Shown in pieces: positions 20 through 18,758 of a stretch of DNA of 64,000 nt (positions within the stretch are counted from its first letter, which is position 1; each line of letters opens with the position of its first letter). The position numbers were made by a program, and so were the translations under genes. The DNA is from a virus (taxonomy: Duplodnaviria; Heunggongvirae; Uroviricota; Caudoviricetes). The notes under the pieces were generated by a model. The model made no database searches and was not told the origin of the DNA. It was given only the letters and a program-made list of their open reading frames with translations. The stretch lies in IMG/VR virus record IMGVR_UViG_3300023371_000005; one strand, written 5' to 3'.

Positions 20-28
20 AAATTTATA

Positions 29-646
29 AACCTGATAAGTTTGCTGACCTTCGTCATACTCCCTATAACCTTCAACCATATTCAATCACCGGGGAGACAA
101 GTCTGAGCCTTCGGGAGCGACCCTAAGCTTCTTGCCCCAGTAGTTCTGACACACCAGAGGCGGCCTTTCCTACCCTATCCCGCAGAGGACTGATTGCCTC
201 TAACTTTCACTCGCCATTCAGAATTGTTTAAGTCTATTAAACCATACTATCTAAACAGCCCAATCTTTCTTCTCGTCGTTGCGATAGAGCTACTCGTACC
301 CTGACCTTACCTTATAGCCGGATTACTCCGACATCAACGCAGACTTCCTTATTGGTGTACCTTGGTCTGGAACAGTCACCAGCTAATCCCTAACAAGGCT
401 TATTCCCCACGGGGGCGTCTATTGCGGAAGCGATAAGACGGTATTTTTGATTGCGGTTATCTTTGCACTCCTCTCCATCCAGGCCCTCCCTTTGGAGGCG
501 GCTCTCTTATGTCACCACAAGAGAATCTACCTATTACCGGCTATCGTCGGTAAGATTGCTTTTCGGACTCCTGGTACCCACAGGCAGGATGAGGATCTCG
601 GCACGATGGTATTCGTTCTTCACCGAGTTGCAAACTTATCAAGGTT
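29..646 (-). ncRNA. Large structured ncRNA, ROOL-like
   Basis: ~16-bp closing helix (630-646 AACCTTGATAAGTTTGC with 29-44 GCAAACTTATCAGGTT), 618 nt, no credible ORF, inside a tRNA array. ROOL rather than GOLLD is judged from size and recalled 3' motifs only. Confidence 0.65.
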
Positions 647-716
647 CATGACAGTCATTAGTCGAAATCGCACTCACCAGGGTTATTCACCGGAGGGTTT
701 CTGTCAGGAGTGCTTC

Positions 717-1388: not shown

Positions 1389-1396
1389 ATATAAAC

Positions 1397-1505
1397 AAGG
1401 CACTTGAAGTCTATTGTACTACCGATTGTACTATTTTCTAAAATGGCTAGAAAAATGGGACTTGAACCCACAACACATAGAATGTGTAATTGCTGTATGT
1501 GCCTT
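1397..1505 (-). ncRNA. Wrapper W3 enclosing a circularly permuted Trp-like tRNA (possible UCA anticodon)
   Basis: 3' half (TCTAT, T arm, TTTTCTA-G-CCA) precedes 5' half (TAGAAAA, D arm, ATAGA-CTTCAA); all four stems pair. Confidence 0.8.
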
Positions 1506-3559: not shown

Positions 3560-3637
3560 TGGGGTGAGTGACCAGACTCGAACTGGCGATCTCCAGAGCC
3601 ACAATCTGGCGCTTTAACCAACTAAGCTACACCCACC
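3560..3637 (-). tRNA. tRNA-His(GTG)
   Basis: CCAGA-TT GTG GC-TCTGG, G-1, CCA. Confidence 0.95.
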
Positions 3638-6217: not shown

Positions 6218-6335
6218 AAGACACATTGTTTGTTTTGCAAAATGTTGGACTCGAACCAACGACCTATTGTTTATCAGACAATTGCTCACCCATCTGAGCT
6301 AATCTCGCTACAAAGCTATTTGCTGTGAGTGTCTT
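6218..6335 (-). ncRNA. Wrapper W7 enclosing a whole tRNA-Ile(GAT) (6237-6308, no CCA)
   Basis: AAGACAC-TC-ACAGCAA...ATTGT-CT GAT AA-ACAAT...GTGTCTT-G. Confidence 0.8.
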
Positions 6336-7509: not shown

Positions 7510-7784
7510 ATATGTGGCGCCGGTTGCCAGCGCCTTTGGGTGGACCAGGGTCTTTCGACCAGCCCAGGATTGCAGATGATATTCGCGACTATCATTTTAA
7601 CGGGCCTGCTCATTTGTTTTTCTCGCCCGGTTGGTTATAGGTAACACTCTTAAACCACCGCTTTACGTCCCTTACTCGTGCTGCGGCCGCACGCAACCTG
7701 TATTTCTTAGCCCAGTTTAGGCAAAGGTTTCGCCCCGGTATTTCCAGTTTTTTCTGGTTTTCCTTCTCCTGGTGGCTTACCATC

Positions 7785-8519: not shown

Positions 8520-8910
8520 ATGTGGCGGATTTTGATCCGAATTCCGCGAACTCTCATTCAAGAAAAACGCATTTCAGGGTGTGCACCCCCATCCGCAGCA
8601 TCACGGGTCCGGTTTCCATTTCTGGCTGAAGCCGATAACAAATAAATTACCCTCTATTCTTAGCACCCGATGTGGGCCGTTTGCCTCTCTCGGCGGGCAA
8701 CCTGCGAAAGTGTTTCTGGTTGACACATAACCTCCCAGTTTCGTTCAGAAGTTTTAGTTTTAGTCCAAACTTCTAAGCCAACACCCCTGCGAAAAATACT
8801 TGTAAATGACCAAACAACTTTAAGCCCAGTTTATAACAGAGTTATTGTCGTTATCCATAATCATAATAATAACCCCTCACCGGATAACTGGTTATAAAAA
8901 AACCGGAGAT

Positions 8911-9063
8911 TTCCCATACTGGATTCGAACCAGTATCACACCTATTACTTCGTGCGTTCTGCCATTAAACTAATGGGACTTTCATCTACATATGTGTTCC
9001 TTATGGGACTCGAACCCACATCTCTTGCCCTCAAGCCATTCTCCCTACTTAAACTAAAGGAAC
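8911..9063 (-). ncRNA. Two tandem tRNA-like elements with defective anticodon arms (8911-8979, 8996-9063)
   Basis: Acceptor, D and T arms intact; anticodon arms are CAC-N10-GTG and CTTG-AGGG-CAAG; no CCA. Confidence 0.65.
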
Positions 9064-9574: not shown

Positions 9575-9808
9575 ATATGTGTTGTAAGGTGAGAACATGA
9601 CAGTGAGTCGATATACTATCAGCTATTCTTCCCATTCCGTGAGAGGTTCTCAAAATACATTTTTCTGCCGATGTTCCTCGCCCCAGGACTTCGCTGATAG
9701 ACGGCCTGGGCACTTCACAAAGGGATACTCTTTGTATTTCCTTTACCTTACATATATATTATAACATATTTTTTTTGAAAATCAAATATGTTATATTTAC
9801 TTAGCTTC

Positions 9809-9990
9809 AAGACGGAGTTTTTTCGATCTTACGCTGCTCTACCAATCTAAGCTACACCCTTCATATCAGGGAACCGAAGTTCCCCTTAGTAGTCACCTAC
9901 GCCACCTTGCCAGGTGAGGGAAGGGTGGTTGGACTCGAACCAACGACCTGCGGCACCACAAGCTAATCTTTGAATCGCTGTTACCGTCTT
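9809..9990 (-). ncRNA. Wrapper W8 enclosing a circularly permuted tRNA-His(GTG)
   Basis: 3' half 9920-9961 precedes 5' half 9832-9862; perfect 8-bp GAAGGGTG/CACCCTTC acceptor. Confidence 0.8.
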
Positions 9991-10102
9991 TTATGGAAAA
10001 GGTTGTGTATGGAGAAAGAAAGTGAACCGTGCATTTCGCTTTCTTTACCTTACATATATATTATAACATATTTTTTTTTGAAAGTCAAAAAGAATTTTTG
10101 AC

Positions 10103-10474: not shown

Positions 10475-10571
10475 AGTATCATTTCCTTTCTCAATCGTCT
10501 TTCTTTATCTTACATAAATATTATAACATATTTTTTTATAAAAATCAAGAAAGATTTTTTATCTAATTTTG

Positions 10572-12135: not shown

Positions 12136-13542
12136 TCAAAAATATTTTTTATTCCTTCCGCCTTCATTCCTATTTTCGTAGCAATGAGGACATAAATATG
12201 TTTCAGTTTCTTCACAGTAAATCTTATCTGAGTTGTAATATATGTAATCACACTCTTCGCAGCGGAAACACTCTGTGTCATAACACTGTTGACAGATCAA
12301 TTCTTCATTATCTCCAGCCACATATGCATCATCCACATACATACGACGACCGCAACAAGCGCAATGAGTATAATTTTCATTCTCTTCTACGCCATATGCC
12401 AACTCGCAATTATCACATCGCATTGTTTCTGAATTATCTACCCAGTCTTTGCCGCAATGTAGACAAGGCACAGAACCGCCCACTACAATGGGCTTTTCAA
12501 TCAACTTTCTTACACCGCTTCGGCTCAAAGTATTATTGAAAATCGCATAATAAGGATAGCGATAACAAGTAGAACGAAGAATGTCATTATAATTACGAGC
12601 ATATCTGCCTTCTACAACTACCTCTTGGAGTGGAGCTAAGAATCCGTTGACGATTACATACTGACAATTTAATGCCCGAGGATTGTCCTCAGGATTAGCA
12701 TCATGCGGGACATAACTGTCGATATAGTCATCTTTCCAGTTGAAATACTTATAATAGCCGAATGGATGTTCTTGTTGAATCAGATTATTATAAATATTCA
12801 GTACGGTATCAATTCCACTTTTAGAGCTAAATGGATACTGGCGTCCCGCAAACATGATAGTGCTGTCTTCATGCTCATGAATCAACATACGCCACTTCTT
12901 AGAGTTCCACTTTACAGAACCAAAGTTAGGAAGTTCTGCTTCATCCATGCCTTTGAGATAAACCATAAAGGTAGTGCGGTCAGTCATATAACTCAGATTA
13001 CCAGCACGATATTCTCCATCGAGGGCATGGCAACTGCGCCAGTTATATGTGTTCTCGCTACTGGACAGAAAATCCAAAGGATGAACTGAAAAACATAACT
13101 TACCCTTGATTTTATTCTCTTGGATAAGCTGGCTCGCTGCGTCCTGAATATTTCTCAGGGTTATGGGATTATGTTCAAAATACTTAAATGCCTTCAGTAG
13201 CTTCATTCCCTTTGGAATGTCACTACCTTCACATACATTTACAACTTTATTTTCAAAAAATCCATCCAGATTTTCATCAATAAACTCAGCCAAAACAGGA
13301 TTATTGAAAGTATCATAAACCTGGGTAGCAAAATCAGCTGCCCGACATCTCTTTTCCTTTTCATCCAAAGTAAATTCAATGGGTTCCGGCCATTCATAAA
13401 TCAAACCGCCGAATCTCTCAATAAACTTTTCCTTGGCAAGCTCCCAGTCGTGGAATAGAGCATCCACCTGGGGATCGGGAATTGATTGAGAATAACGAAT
13501 TACTTCGCAGAACTGTTCTTTGATTCTGTCGATTTCTCGCAT
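12136..13542 (-). CDS. Hypothetical protein, HPLDFL...W.SC family, C-terminal CxxC array
   Basis: Paralog of 17163-18758; start moved to the ATG after GGAGG. Confidence 0.75.
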   Translation of the reverse strand: MREIDRIKEQFCEVIRYSQSIPDPQVDALFHDWELAKEKFIERFGGLIYEWPEPIEFTLDEKEKRCRAADFATQVYDTFNNPVLAEFIDENLDGFFENKVVNVCEGSDIPKGMKLLKAFKYFEHNPITLRNIQDAASQLIQENKIKGKLCFSVHPLDFLSSSENTYNWRSCHALDGEYRAGNLSYMTDRTTFMVYLKGMDEAELPNFGSVKWNSKKWRMLIHEHEDSTIMFAGRQYPFSSKSGIDTVLNIYNNLIQQEHPFGYYKYFNWKDDYIDSYVPHDANPEDNPRALNCQYVIVNGFLAPLQEVVVEGRYARNYNDILRSTCYRYPYYAIFNNTLSRSGVRKLIEKPIVVGGSVPCLHCGKDWVDNSETMRCDNCELAYGVEENENYTHCACCGRRMYVDDAYVAGDNEELICQQCYDTECFRCEECDYIYYNSDKIYCEETETYLCPHCYENRNEGGRNKKYF

Positions 13543-14486
13543 ATTACCTCCGCACAAATCTTACAAATTTTCTTATCTTTGGCGGGGTCCTCAATCTCAT
13601 ATGCCTCGCCGCACAAATCGCACCATTCAACATTACCAACGATGCAATCGGGACAGTAGAACTTAGTCTTTCTATCAATGCCGATTACAGGGAATAATTC
13701 ATATTCACTGTATAACTTTTTACATTTACCGCAATGCTGACCATACACTACAGCACTTCTCCACCAACTAGCAGAAGAGAATACCATTTCATCATACTCA
13801 AAATCCGGAATCTCAGTTTCACACAACATCTTCTGGACTTTCGCAATGGTATCATATAATGGAGCAATATGAAGAGTTTCTACTTCACTATGCTCATCTT
13901 CATAACCAACAGACAGATTGACACCACAAATATTCCACTGAGGCATCAAGAAGCTAATGTCAGAGAATGAACCATATGCTTCACAGAAGCCGAAGCTTTC
14001 AACGTAGTCATAGAAGTCTTCATTGAAGCACTCGTAAAATACACAATCGTTAGTACCATGACGATCTAACTGAATCATATATTTCAGATTGGGAATGGGG
14101 CAATCTCTGCTTCCCAATGCAGTTGCTCCTAAACCGCCTTTCTCTTCATCGGTAGTGAAAATAATGGCTGGCCGCAATCCACTCTGGATAATTTTCAAAA
14201 TGGCAAAAATACCAGCTCGGTCATCGGCGCCAAGACCCTGTGGACTCCACAGAACGCCTTTTCGCTGGTCATAATATAAATCAGCTACGGGATTTTTGAA
14301 CACAGTATCCATATGAGCGACCAGCGCAATTGGAATATCTCCAATAGCAACGATATAATCTTTCGTAACGATTACTTTCTCATACTTCTCTTTTAGGTAT
14401 TGTGCCATAGCCTGGTGCAATCCTTTTTGTGTCAACGATACTAAGCGTTCAAATAATCTATAATCTTGATTACTTAGGACTCGCAC
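13500..14486 (-). CDS. M28/M20-like zinc hydrolase with C-terminal CxxC
   Basis: AHMDTV, GADDRAG, TDEEKGG, GYEDEH. Confidence 0.75.
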   Translation of the reverse strand: MRVLSNQDYRLFERLVSLTQKGLHQAMAQYLKEKYEKVIVTKDYIVAIGDIPIALVAHMDTVFKNPVADLYYDQRKGVLWSPQGLGADDRAGIFAILKIIQSGLRPAIIFTTDEEKGGLGATALGSRDCPIPNLKYMIQLDRHGTNDCVFYECFNEDFYDYVESFGFCEAYGSFSDISFLMPQWNICGVNLSVGYEDEHSEVETLHIAPLYDTIAKVQKMLCETEIPDFEYDEMVFSSASWWRSAVVYGQHCGKCKKLYSEYELFPVIGIDRKTKFYCPDCIVGNVEWCDLCGEAYEIEDPAKDKKICKICAEVICEKSTESKNSSAK

Positions 14487-17162: not shown

Positions 17163-18758
17163 TTAGAGTTTTTCGATTAGAGCATCCCGCTCTTCTTCCG
17201 TAGAAGCATTGCGGATTGCCACCAACAAATCTACGGTTCGATAATCCAGGTCAACACCCAGAGCATCTTCGTCAATATTGCGAAGGTCAAACGCAAGACG
17301 CTCGATACCGTATTCGTCCTTTACGAGAAGAACCTCGCCATATTCTTTCTTATAGCAACCATGCTGATAGCAGTAGTTACAGATGGAGATATAGTATCTC
17401 CAATTATCGAATGTTTCTACTCCTGGCATTTGGATGTAGATGTGGCGCATATCAGATTCACTGGTGTGATCATCACAGCACTCACATCTTTCCAACTCAT
17501 TGTAGTAGCAATACTCACAATAGAGTCTTCCATCTCCGCCAGTATAGCACTCTCCACCGGACCATTCGCCGCAGTGAGAGCAATAGAAGTAACCATTACA
17601 ACGGCGGCAACGCACGTCGCAAGGATCAACTTCTTTTGGCTCAATAACCTCTCCGCATCCAGTGCAGATTGCGGGTCCAGACACGTTGAGATAGAACCGA
17701 TCATTCTTGGCGAAATACTCAGGTGCCACATAAGCCAAACGCTGATTATAAATATCATTATACATATAATCCATATTCAGACTTACATAAACCCGGTTAC
17801 CGCCAAAGACATTATTCTTGAAATTCTCAATCTGGCAAGTCTCTTCTGCGTAGGGGCCATAAGGCTTACAAGGAGTCATCAGCTCCCGCAACCACTTGAT
17901 AGTAGTTCCCTGGAGGACGTCGCTGTTATAAGGATATTGGCGATTACCAAGAATCATTTCCGGAGAAACCACATACAACTGGCGCCAACGCTTGTTGTTC
18001 CAGGTATCTCCGTTATATTCCAAAGACATAGGTTCCTTAGCTTCCACATAGGCGATAACAACGCAGGGAGAGTTCATCATTTCGATGGTTCCCAGTCGAT
18101 AATCGCCCGGCTCATCCATCCAGCTCATACAGGAACCCCAGTTAGAAGCATTATCGCTCATGGTCAAAAAGTCCAGAGGATGAATACTCAAACACAGATT
18201 ACCTCTAATCTGCTTCTGGTTCAGAACCTGGGAGTGAGCCTGTCGGAAAGCCTCATAGTGCTCAGCGCAGTTAAGAGCTTCGGCAATCTTACCAAGCATC
18301 TTACTGGCCTTACAGTTCTGGTTGACCTGCAAGGGGCGACCAGTCACGGTAAAAATTGCCGGAATGGTAATAGCAGGTCCGTCATAAATATTTTTTACCA
18401 GCATCGCGTAGTCATCTACGAAACGCTTCATGTTGTAATATTCATCGGTATAGGGAGGAAATACTGTCCTTATACGATTCTTGAATTCATTTCGGAAGAG
18501 AGCAGCAACAGGACAGCCATAGCGCAGAGTGTCTTCCATCTCTTCTTCCATGTCTTCACAAGGCTTATCAAAACAAACAGCCTTTTTGATGATAAAGTTT
18601 TCACCAAAAGCCTCGTAGAAAGGCTGTTTAGCAGTATCCCAATAACGAAGGAAATAGTTCATTTCCTCACGGGGGAGAGGGCTTCCTCCGCTATAAAGAT
18701 CCAGGTATTTCCACAGCGTGTCAACATCAACAGTTGGCAACTTATCATACAAACTCAT
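17163..18758 (-). CDS. Hypothetical protein, HPLDFL...W.SC family, CxxC array
   Basis: 531 aa; LSIHPLDFLTMSDN..WGSC, GDYRLG. Confidence 0.75.
   Translation of the reverse strand: MSLYDKLPTVDVDTLWKYLDLYSGGSPLPREEMNYFLRYWDTAKQPFYEAFGENFIIKKAVCFDKPCEDMEEEMEDTLRYGCPVAALFRNEFKNRIRTVFPPYTDEYYNMKRFVDDYAMLVKNIYDGPAITIPAIFTVTGRPLQVNQNCKASKMLGKIAEALNCAEHYEAFRQAHSQVLNQKQIRGNLCLSIHPLDFLTMSDNASNWGSCMSWMDEPGDYRLGTIEMMNSPCVVIAYVEAKEPMSLEYNGDTWNNKRWRQLYVVSPEMILGNRQYPYNSDVLQGTTIKWLRELMTPCKPYGPYAEETCQIENFKNNVFGGNRVYVSLNMDYMYNDIYNQRLAYVAPEYFAKNDRFYLNVSGPAICTGCGEVIEPKEVDPCDVRCRRCNGYFYCSHCGEWSGGECYTGGDGRLYCEYCYYNELERCECCDDHTSESDMRHIYIQMPGVETFDNWRYYISICNYCYQHGCYKKEYGEVLLVKDEYGIERLAFDLRNIDEDALGVDLDYRTVDLLVAIRNASTEEERDALIEKL

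What the first reader, a model, noticed from the sequence alone, without database searches (positions are those of the whole stretch)
9809..9990. Permuted tRNA-His that keeps the His-specific 8-bp acceptor
Seen: the 3' half (TTGTGGT-GCCGC-AGGTC, T arm, CACCCTTC; 9920-9961) precedes the 5' half (GAAGGGTG, D arm; 9832-9862), separated by a ~57-nt linker with two hairpins. Established: G-1:C73 is the HisRS identity element. Inference: its perfect retention suggests selection for synthetase recognition even though a canonical His tRNA exists at 3560-3637.
Basis: partly seen in the sequence, partly recalled or inferred. Interest (0 to 1): 0.78.

Follow-up and report, generated by a model that had tools for sequence, protein, structure and literature searches.

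The report
Phage Y-RNA-like tRNA-His mimic
The "permuted tRNA-His" is real as a shape, but it is one member of a large family of phage small RNAs that join a tRNA look-alike with a sealed acceptor end to a constant handle, most likely for a Ro60-like ring protein, and its 8-bp "His" acceptor is the family norm, not proof of selection for the histidine synthetase.

Summary
Observation confirmed. On the minus strand, 9990-9808 holds a complete, circularly permuted tRNA-His(GUG) cloverleaf. Its 8-bp acceptor is capped by a 57-nt linker with three hairpins, not two.

It is not a stray rearrangement. It matches Rfam YrlA (bacterial Y RNA, a known tRNA mimic with this T arm - capped acceptor - D arm order) at E 3.5e-8, below the gathering score. 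It scores 85 bits against a model built from 20 phage relatives without it.

All carry one handle: a 7-bp terminal helix, 2 nt, ACAGCRA, and a short second helix. The handle enters the anticodon stem between nt 29 and 30.

Handle-bearing phage records almost always encode a DUF2828/DUF7788 protein (12 of 13 complete records, against 0 of 14 controls). Its model hits only Ro60 structures at the top. Two relatives lie beside true TROVE Ro60 genes. None lies in this window.

The HisRS inference is weak:
- 75% of family members can form an 8th pair, of any type.
- A near relative has GUG with U x U at that position.
- The positional orthologue in the closest related phage record reads GGG.
- The acceptor does not co-vary with the resident tRNA-His.

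Still, 3 of 6 His-like lineages have C73/G-1, and the closest orthologue encodes C73-CCA. RNase P opening into a split tRNA-His mimic therefore stays possible. Earlier follow-ups in this scan reached the same family reading for W3 and W4 of this window.

The parts
10060..10088 (-). sigma-70-type promoter of the W8 unit (TTGACT, 17 nt, TG-TATAAT)
   Evidence: 11 of 12 matches. The same promoter is repeated before neighbouring units (10548-10520, 9785-9758) and occurs more than 40 times in relative G001.
9993..10046 (-). leader: hairpin 10046-10015 and conserved stretch CCATACACAACCTTTTCCAT 10012-9993
   Evidence: The conserved stretch is shared with L156 and L096. Function unknown.
9984..9990 (-). 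P1 5' strand AAGACGG of the handle
   Evidence: Pairs perfectly with 9815-9809. Eight such handles lie in the window, with covarying stems. 6 of 7 P1 pairs covary in 20 relatives.
9975..9981 (-). conserved bulge motif ACAGCGA (family consensus ACAGCRA), 2 nt after P1
   Evidence: Invariant ACAGC.A in 20 relatives. Candidate protein-binding site, by analogy with the GNCGAA/CGAA bulge of Y RNAs (PMC4201824, PMC12135203).
9966..9968 (-). P2 5' strand (GAU), pairs with AUC 9827-9825
   Evidence: Compensatory change in L156 (GAC/GUC) and CGAU/AUCG in L096.
9953..9963 (-). anticodon-like hairpin: G30 C31, loop UUGUGGU (GUG at 34-36), G39 C40
   Evidence: The loop differs in one base from the resident tRNA-His loop UUGUGGC.
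9945..9952 (-). nt 41-43 (CGC, pairs with GCG 9834-9832) and variable loop AGGUC
   Evidence: All three pairs covary in the family (helix 3: 100% paired).
9928..9944 (-). T arm GUUGG UUCGAGU CCAAC
   Evidence: V loop plus T arm is identical over 22 nt to that of W7 (6236-6308).
9920..9927 (-). acceptor 3' strand CACCCUU + C73
   Evidence: 8 Watson-Crick pairs with 9862-9855. Two double compensatory changes and one G-U in L156.
9863..9919 (-). 57-nt linker: CCU, hairpin H1 9916-9903, H2 9900-9889 (GUGA loop), H3 9885-9868 (UUCG loop), GAUAU
   Evidence: Apart from two 1-nt indels and one compensatory pair in H3, identical to L156. The longest capping insert of 59 family members (median 4 nt).
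9855..9862 (-). G-1 + acceptor 5' strand AAGGGUG
9836..9852 (-). D arm GCUU AGAUUGGUA GAGC
9832..9834 (-). nt 27-29 (GCG), closing the composite anticodon stem
9808..9831 (-). 3' side of the handle: UAA, P2 3' strand, A-rich strand GAAAAAACU, P1 3' strand CCGUCUU (9815-9809), invariant G 9808

Best explanation
W8 is a phage-encoded small RNA of the Y-RNA / YrlA kind. It is a tRNA mimic, not a decoding tRNA. It has its own sigma-70-type promoter inside a tRNA array. It folds into two modules. The first is a handle: a 7-bp terminal helix P1, an asymmetric bulge carrying ACAGCGA, and a short helix P2. The second is a full tRNA-shaped body whose acceptor end is sealed, here by a 57-nt three-hairpin insert. 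Its anticodon hairpin is displayed intact because the handle enters the anticodon stem between nt 29 and 30. Inferred: the handle docks on a Ro60-like ring protein. That protein would be the phage DUF2828/DUF7788 protein, expected elsewhere in this phage's genome, or the host's Rsr. Also inferred: the tRNA-like body engages tRNA-binding enzymes or tethers a nuclease such as PNPase, as shown for bacterial and Thermus-phage Y RNAs. The GUG loop and the C73:G-1 pair make this copy a tRNA-His look-alike within a family that also imitates tRNA-Pro, Lys, Thr, Asn and Leu. The 8-bp acceptor itself is the family's usual hairpin length. Shown here: fold, family membership, covariation, and the co-occurrence with the protein. 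Not shown: binding, processing, and biological role.
For: - Rfam YrlA hit over 9804-9972(-): 43.7 bits, E 3.5e-8, all 114 model positions.
- Family model R1, built from 20 phage relatives without W8, gives 85.3 bits over all 128 positions, with the linker as a 56-nt insertion in the capping loop.
- In the 20 relatives, 97.6% of cells are paired and 22 of 29 pairs change on both sides. No shuffle out of 500 reaches this, and slid controls pair at about 40%.
- Eight handles with covarying P1 lie in the window. The same handle occurs in many IMG/VR phage contigs.
- DUF7788 (with DUF2828) is found in 21 of 26 handle-bearing phage records, and in 12 of 13 that are at least 90% complete. In tRNA-bearing control records it is found in 2 of 49, and in 0 of 14 complete ones. 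The only control with an R1 hit of 60 bits or more is one of those two positives.
- An AlphaFold model of the G003 protein (pLDDT 73) has Ro60/TROVE structures as its 13 best PDB matches, full length, including Thermus phage phiLo Ro60.
- Family members lie beside true TROVE genes on the same strand: L217 about 850 nt upstream, L111 about 400 nt downstream.
- Literature: YrlA RNAs have the T - capped acceptor - D order and are substrates of TruB, DusA and RNase P (PMC4201824). Phage Ro60 binds phage Y-like RNAs and host PNPase (PMC12135203).
Against: - No TROVE or DUF2828/DUF7788 gene lies in the 64-kb window. The rest of this phage's genome could not be searched.
- The Rfam score is below YrlA's gathering score (43.7 against 69).
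- The canonical GNCGAAN0-1G motif is replaced by ACAGCGA.
- TROVE is absent from 12 complete handle-bearing relatives.
- The protein-RNA link is co-occurrence only, and the related phages are not independent samples.
- The fold match to Ro60 has only moderate TM-scores (0.32-0.45).
Confidence: 0.72

Rival explanations
1. Split tRNA-His mimic, an extension of the first reader's idea that is compatible with the main reading. RNase P cuts 5' of G-1. The linker is trimmed back to C73-CC, and the CCA-adding enzyme completes the end. This gives a two-piece RNA, held together by the handle and the tertiary fold, that presents G-1:C73-CCA and a GUG loop. HisRS, or another tRNA-His-specific factor, then charges it or is sequestered by it.
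For: - All His identity elements are present.
- C73 is followed by CCU in W8 and by CCA in L156.
- U lies at -2, before the expected cut.
- N73-CCA follows the 7-bp stem in 11 of 59 family members, against about 1 expected.
- M. smegmatis YrlA, the one YrlA with a 7-bp acceptor, is cut by RNase P and gains CCA in vivo (PMC4201824).
- 3 of 6 xUG lineages carry C73/G-1, against 17% background.
- In L228 the anticodon hairpin is 10/11 identical to the resident tRNA-His.
Against: - The 8th pair is the family norm and of any type.
- L311 has GUG with U x U, and L408 and L212 have AUG with A73.
- Discriminator bases of Pro-, Lys-, Thr-, Leu- and Ile-like members do not systematically fit their loops. 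Only 8 of 17 matched the resident tRNA, and the extraction was partly unreliable.
- The linker is more conserved than the acceptor stem and has one compensatory change. That suggests a function of its own, not a discarded spacer.
- No transcript data.
Confidence: 0.12
2. Decoy or sensor for host tRNA-targeting defences. The displayed anticodon hairpin serves as bait for anticodon nucleases or tRNA-modifying enzymes, with the ring protein protecting or presenting the RNA.
For: - The anticodon hairpins are faithful copies of real tRNA loops, with U33 and a purine at 37. Examples are UUCGGGA, UUUGGGA, UUUUUAA and UUUGUAA, identical over 11 nt to the resident tRNA-Pro in L216 and L206.
- The triplet varies between positional orthologues while the body is kept: GGG in L096, GUG in L311 and W8.
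- The location is in phage tRNA arrays.
Against: - No defence or nuclease partner was identified.
- W3-type members of the same family lack the anticodon hairpin altogether.
- The evidence is purely comparative.
Confidence: 0.12
3. True permuted tRNA gene. The precursor is circularised or ligated at nt 29/30, the handle and linker are removed, and a working tRNA-His results, as for the permuted tRNA genes of the red alga Cyanidioschyzon merolae.
For: - The in-silico un-permuted sequence is a perfect tRNA-His cloverleaf.
- A linker joins the acceptor ends, as in algal permuted genes (my own knowledge of that system).
Against: - There is no bulge-helix-bulge motif at the junction. P2 is flanked by a 2 x 3 internal loop and by a large asymmetric loop.
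- RtcB ligase occurs in only 1 of 26 related phage records.
- A canonical tRNA-His with CCA lies at 3560-3636.
- Family members carry many different 'anticodons', mismatched discriminators, or no anticodon arm at all.
- The invariant ACAGCRA handle argues for a retained functional module, not an excised one.
Confidence: 0.03
4. Decaying by-product of recombination between tandem tRNA genes: a pseudogene without function.
For: - It lies in a dense tRNA array where recombination is plausible.
- Its V loop and T arm are identical to W7's.
Against: - It has its own consensus promoter.
- All helices are kept by compensatory changes in L156.
- Covariation is strong across 20 relatives from many phages.
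Confidence: 0.01

Closest known systems
YrlA-type bacterial and phage Y RNAs (Rfam RF02553; Chen et al. 2014, PMC4201824)
   Same: The order of elements is the same: 5'/3' terminal stem, conserved bulge, then T arm, capped acceptor-like stem and D arm. It is a tRNA mimic with conserved D and T loops. There is a significant covariance-model match. Relatives of W8 lie next to Ro60 (TROVE) genes on the same strand. In M. smegmatis a 7-bp acceptor makes the RNA an RNase P and CCA-adding substrate.
   Different: It scores below Rfam's gathering score. The bulge motif is ACAGCRA, not GNCGAAN0-1G. It has an extra outer helix P1 and an intact 7-nt anticodon-like hairpin that is not paired with the 3' strand. 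There is a 57-nt three-hairpin insert in the acceptor cap. No TROVE gene lies in the window. The associated protein in most relatives is DUF2828/DUF7788, not Pfam TROVE.
Thermus phage phiLo Ro60 with its Y-RNA-like RNAs Yrl1 and Yrl2 (PMC12135203; PDB 9KOP, 9L5Y)
   Same: A phage-encoded Ro60-type ring protein binds phage-encoded RNAs built as a 5'-3' stem around a bulge with a short conserved motif. The complex recruits host PNPase. phiLo Ro60 is the top structural match of the DUF2828/DUF7788 model.
   Different: The phiLo RNAs were picked by a CGAA motif, and the passages read do not describe them as tRNA cloverleaves. The protein here is of a different Pfam family, and its binding to these RNAs is untested.
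Permuted tRNA genes of Cyanidioschyzon merolae and other algae (from my own knowledge; not retrieved here)
   Same: The 3' half is encoded upstream of the 5' half, with a linker between the acceptor ends.
   Different: Those mature into working tRNAs through a bulge-helix-bulge motif, the splicing endonuclease and a ligase. None of these features was found here, and the break point carries a conserved handle.

Membership tests
YrlA / bacterial Y RNA (Rfam RF02553) | Match to the Rfam covariance model at or above its gathering score (69 bits) | tested here: not met
   43.7 bits, E 3.5e-8, full model 1-114, with a 60-nt insertion in the acceptor cap. Significant, but below the curated cut-off.
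YrlA / bacterial Y RNA (Rfam RF02553) | tRNA-like module in the order T arm - closed acceptor-like stem - D arm, with tRNA-type T and D loops | tested here: met
YrlA / bacterial Y RNA (Rfam RF02553) | GNCGAAN0-1G motif near the 5' end, at the terminal stem | tested here: not met
   The sequence there is AAGACGG-UA-ACAGCGA-UU. It shares only CGA, and most relatives have ACAGCAA.
YrlA / bacterial Y RNA (Rfam RF02553) | Encoded within about 4 kb of a Ro60 (TROVE) gene on the same strand | tested here: not met
   No TROVE-like frame in the 64-kb window. Met for family members L217 and L111 in other phages.
YrlA / bacterial Y RNA (Rfam RF02553) | Bound by Ro60/Rsr | not testable with these tools
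   Needs pull-down or EMSA.
ACAGCRA-handle phage RNAs (family defined in this scan; model R1) | 7-bp terminal helix, 2 nt, ACAGCRA, and G after the 3' strand | tested here: met
   AAGACGG / CCGUCUU, UA, ACAGCGA, G 9808.
ACAGCRA-handle phage RNAs (family defined in this scan; model R1) | Full-length match to a model built from other members | tested here: met
   85.3 bits, E 6.6e-19, positions 1-128.
ACAGCRA-handle phage RNAs (family defined in this scan; model R1) | Same genome encodes a DUF2828/DUF7788 Ro60-like protein | tested here: inconclusive
   Absent from the window, and the rest of this genome is not held. Present in the closest relative G001 and in 12 of 13 complete relatives.
Functional bacterial tRNA-His | Contiguous cloverleaf read 5' to 3' with a free acceptor end | tested here: not met
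   ARAGORN finds nothing in the native sequence and calls tRNA-His only after in-silico un-permutation. The acceptor is capped by 57 nt.
Functional bacterial tRNA-His | G-1:C73 pair and GUG anticodon in a 7-nt loop | tested here: met
Functional bacterial tRNA-His | 3' CCA end | tested here: not met
   C73 is followed by CCU, internal to the RNA. L156 has CCA, also internal. All free tRNAs checked carry CCA (tRNA-His).
Permuted tRNA genes (Cyanidioschyzon type) | 3' half upstream of 5' half, acceptor ends joined by a linker | tested here: met
Permuted tRNA genes (Cyanidioschyzon type) | Bulge-helix-bulge motif at the precursor termini, with a splicing endonuclease and ligase to circularise | tested here: not met
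   The junction is a 2 x 3 internal loop, a 3-bp P2 and a 14 x 9 loop. RtcB occurs in 1 of 26 related records. The endonuclease was not searched for.

The most novel reading that the evidence does not exclude
W8 and its orthologue L156 are opened in the linker by RNase P and 3' trimming. The product is a two-piece tRNA-His look-alike, held on a Ro60-like ring by the ACAGCRA handle. It presents G-1:C73-CCA and a GUG loop, and it is charged by, or titrates, HisRS or another tRNA-His-specific host factor. More broadly, the family would be a set of isotype-specific split tRNA mimics that phages use to manipulate tRNA-recognising enzymes.
Probability: 0.12. Interest if true: 0.85.

Novelty: new variant of a known kind. 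Interest (0 to 1): 0.6.

Why it matters
Y RNAs that mimic tRNA are known in bacteria and in a few phages. What the tRNA module does is still open.

This locus belongs to a large phage family, and I found no description of it in the literature held here. The family has four distinguishing features:
- It swaps the canonical Ro60-binding motif for ACAGCRA.
- It displays an intact, isotype-like anticodon hairpin.
- It often encodes N73-CCA inside the sealed acceptor loop.
- It tracks a DUF2828/DUF7788 protein of no known function, whose model looks like Ro60.

If the link holds, it gives a function to a widespread domain of unknown function. It also supplies many natural variants for testing what tRNA mimicry by Y RNAs is for. 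Variants with His-, Pro-, Lys-, Thr- and Asn-like loops, and with capped or extended acceptors, can be compared.

For annotation, such loci should not be called permuted or suppressor tRNAs.

Tried and rejected
- The whole-genome search of the window's own genome was not available.
- blastn of the region against INPHARED phages found no match.
- The search for related loci with the neighbouring 123-aa and 293-aa ORFs found no relatives. The 240-aa ORF did give 28 loci.
- The first pattern, T loop ... D arm, mostly caught adjacent tRNAs.
- The metagenome scan for GUG-type members returned almost only real tRNA-His genes and one relative, L311.
No expression or processing evidence was therefore obtained.
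- A profile of phage Ro60 proteins shows no relation to the window's 473-aa and 531-aa paralogues (hhalign probability 0.1). It found nothing in the six-frame translation of the window.
- RtcB is not associated with the family: 1 of 26 records.
- The test of whether each mimic's discriminator matches the resident tRNA with the same anticodon gave 8 of 17. My extraction of N73 was unreliable for some tRNAs, so I draw no conclusion from it.
- MAFFT of W8 with a single short-looped relative misaligned everything 3' of the T arm. The structural alignment came from the covariance model instead.
- The RNAfold minimum-free-energy structure pairs GCUUGUG with CGCAGGU and disrupts the D arm. I rejected it in favour of the covariation-supported fold, although that fold's computed energy is higher (-42.5 against -62.5 kcal/mol).
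- R1 hits below about 55 bits in control phages are mostly tRNA junctions or other Y-like RNAs. I did not count them as members.

Full report
WHAT IS THERE

The window opens with a dense tRNA array on the minus strand. ARAGORN tRNAs, and there is a ROOL RNA at 26-651. The rest of the window encodes phage proteins: terminase, portal and virion proteins.

The finding lies between tRNA-Trp and tRNA-Asn and has its own consensus promoter: TTGACT at 10088, 17 nt, TG-TATAAT ending at 10060.

- The anticodon loop, variable loop, T arm and acceptor 3' strand with C73 (9963-9920) precede a 57-nt linker (9919-9863).
- After the linker come G-1, the acceptor 5' strand and the D arm (9862-9836).
- The eight acceptor pairs are all Watson-Crick.
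- The linker forms three hairpins, not two. Two of them are capped by GUGA and UUCG tetraloops.
- The break is not in the anticodon loop. G30 C31 precede the loop and pair with G39 C40. C41 G42 C43 pair with G27 C28 G29, which follow the D arm. The two RNA ends therefore leave the anticodon stem between nt 29 and 30.

Joined in silico, the halves give a sequence that ARAGORN calls tRNA-His(GTG), with a perfect 5-bp anticodon stem. The native order gives nothing.

WHAT IT IS

A permissive Rfam scan matches 9804-9972(-) to YrlA, the bacterial Y RNA. The score is 43.7 bits with E 3.5e-8, over the whole model, with the linker treated as a 60-nt insertion. That is below the gathering score of 69.

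YrlA RNAs are known tRNA mimics built in this order: terminal stem with a Ro60-binding motif, T arm, closed acceptor-like stem, D arm (PMC4201824). The 'permutation' is therefore the normal topology of a known RNA class.

Outside the tRNA-like body, W8 has a 7-bp terminal helix (AAGACGG/CCGUCUU), 2 nt, ACAGCGA, and a 3-bp second helix. The same handle, with covarying helices, occurs eight times in the window's array and in many IMG/VR phage contigs.

THE FAMILY

Pattern scans gave about two dozen distinct RNAs with the same body plan. I aligned twenty of them and counted pairs:
- 97.6% of cells are paired.
- 22 of 29 pairs change on both sides.
- No shuffle out of 500 reaches the observed values, and slid controls pair at about 40%.
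- P1, the 27-29:41-43 helix, the T stem, the acceptor stem and the D stem all covary.

A covariance model built from these twenty, without W8, scores W8 at 85.3 bits over its whole length. The same model finds 72 distinct members in the loci held.

THE CLOSEST RELATIVES

The 402-kb record G001 is a close relative with two tRNA arrays.
- One array carries L156, the orthologue of W8. It has the same GUG loop, an 8-bp acceptor with C:G at the end, and a 59-nt linker.
- Between W8 and L156 the acceptor has two double compensatory changes and one G-U. P2 has a compensatory change, and so does hairpin H3.
- Apart from two single-base indels and that one compensatory pair in H3, the linker is otherwise identical.
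- The linker is thus conserved better than the stems around it. This argues that it has a function of its own.

The other array of G001 has, at the corresponding place, L096. It has the same handle, a GGG loop, a 7-bp acceptor and a 9-nt cap. A metagenome relative, L311, has the L096 body with a GUG loop and U x U at the 8th position.

THE HIS QUESTION

Evidence against reading the 8-bp stem as a retained HisRS identity element:
- Among 59 distinct members with a sound acceptor, 44 can form an 8th pair of any type.
- C:G occurs in 10 of them, beside Pro-, Leu-, Ile- and Thr-like loops.
- GUG and C73:G-1 are uncoupled in L311.
- The W8 and L156 acceptors (AAGGGUG, AGGGGCG) do not follow the resident tRNA-His acceptors (GUGGGUG, GUGAGUG).

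Evidence in its favour:
- The loops of the family are faithful copies of real anticodon loops: UUNGGGA, UUUUUAA, UUUGUAA, UUGUUAA, UUGUGGU. In some phages they are identical over 11 nt to the resident tRNA.
- A separate lineage (L228:3498, L244:5794) has a hairpin 10/11 identical to its resident tRNA-His, and again C73:G-1.
- L404 has GUG with C73 and G-1.
- Altogether, 3 of 6 xUG lineages carry C/G, against 17% overall. This is suggestive but not significant.
- L156 encodes C73-CCA and W8 encodes C73-CCU. N73-CCA follows the 7-bp stem in 11 of 59 members, where about one is expected by chance.
- M. smegmatis YrlA is cut by RNase P and receives CCA in vivo. Opening of W8 into a two-piece tRNA-His mimic therefore remains a live minority reading.

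THE LIKELY PARTNER

Pfam TROVE is absent from the window and from 12 complete handle-bearing relatives. It does lie next to family members in two phage fragments, on the same strand: about 850 nt from L217, which has an ACAGCAA handle, and about 400 nt from L111.

A profile of these phage Ro60 proteins picked up weak vWA matches in relatives. These proved to be DUF2828 + DUF7788 proteins of 470-600 aa.
- DUF7788 is present in 21 of 26 handle-bearing records, and in 12 of 13 that are at least 90% complete.
- It is present in 2 of 49 tRNA-bearing control phage records, and in 0 of 14 complete ones.
- The one control with a strong R1 hit is one of the two positives.
- In two short fragments the gene and the RNA lie 1.6-3 kb apart on the same strand.
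- An AlphaFold model of the G003 protein (pLDDT 73) has Ro60/TROVE structures as its 13 best PDB matches over its full length. Thermus phage phiLo Ro60 comes first.
- phiLo Ro60 binds phage Y-like RNAs and recruits host PNPase (PMC12135203).
- I found no paper on DUF2828 in phages or on this handle.
- The window itself has no such gene. In G001 the single copy lies at one end of the contig, and one of the two tRNA arrays runs to the other end. So in this phage it may lie outside the window.

MECHANISM, WITH ITS STATUS

Shown: the fold, its conservation, family membership and the genomic association.

Inferred: the handle docks on a Ro60-like ring, either the phage DUF2828/DUF7788 protein or host Rsr. 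The tRNA-shaped body, with its displayed anticodon hairpin and sealed acceptor, engages tRNA-recognising proteins or tethers a nuclease.

W8 cannot decode as it stands, for three reasons:
- The acceptor is closed.
- There is no terminal CCA.
- A helix projects from the anticodon stem.

A true permuted tRNA gene is unlikely. There is no bulge-helix-bulge motif, RtcB occurs in only 1 of 26 relatives, and the handle is invariant. A pseudogene is excluded by the covariation.

VERDICT

W8 is a new variant of a known kind. It is a YrlA-like phage Y RNA with a new handle, an intact anticodon hairpin, an exceptionally long acceptor insert, and a probable DUF2828/DUF7788 Ro60-like partner. Earlier follow-ups in this scan reached the same family-level reading for W3 and W4 of this window. 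I re-derived that reading independently here.

Noticed in passing
window 1396-1505 (-), and loci L232, L057:12355-12479, L156:2044-2153, L311:683-809, L217:1900-2013 and others: In 11 of 59 distinct family members the capping loop starts with N73-CCA directly after a 7-bp acceptor-like stem (about 1 expected by chance). This is either a remnant of CCA-encoding tRNA genes or a pre-formed 3' end exposed by cleavage.
   Followed up: partly
window 6236-6308 (W7 cargo) and 9928-9949 (W8): W7, an unpermuted tRNA-Ile-like cargo in the same kind of handle, and W8 share an identical 22-nt variable loop plus T arm. This suggests recent recombination or a common origin of the cargoes.
   Followed up: no
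window 9993-10012 (-): The leader stretch CCATACACAACCTTTTCCAT, between the promoter and P1, is conserved in L156 and L096 but absent in L311, where P1 follows the promoter closely. Function unknown.
   Followed up: no
window 10060-10088, 10520-10548, 9758-9785 (-): Each tRNA or small-RNA unit has its own near-consensus promoter with the same extended downstream sequence (ATATATGTAAGGTAAAG). The relative G001 has more than 40 copies spread over 400 kb.
   Followed up: partly
window 26-651 (-) and 7531-7566 (-): A ROOL RNA (323 bits) and a DUF3800-XI RNA match (47.6 bits, above the gathering score) lie in the same tRNA array.
   Followed up: no
window 8910-8979 and 8995-9063 (-): Two weak Rfam tRNA matches (40.8 and 38.6 bits) that ARAGORN does not call. 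They may be degenerate or unusual tRNAs.
   Followed up: no
window 12136-13557 and 17163-18758 (-): Two paralogous Cys-rich proteins (473 and 531 aa, 30% identical, both phrog_18912, no Pfam family), with many conserved CxxC pairs in the C-terminal half. They are unrelated to Ro60 by profile comparison.
   Followed up: partly
L228:3498-3640 and L244:5794-5933: A separate lineage of handle RNAs has loop UUAUGGU (anticodon AUG), C73:G-1 and a 15-18-nt cap. Its anticodon hairpin is 10/11 identical to the resident tRNA-His about 200 nt downstream.
   Followed up: partly
G001 (IMGVR_UViG_3300032167_000002), about 0.4-31 kb and 199-240 kb: The closest relative has two diverged copies of the whole tRNA / ROOL / handle-RNA array. 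One carries the long-linker GUG form and the other the short-loop GGG form, at corresponding places. Only one DUF7788 gene was found.
   Followed up: partly
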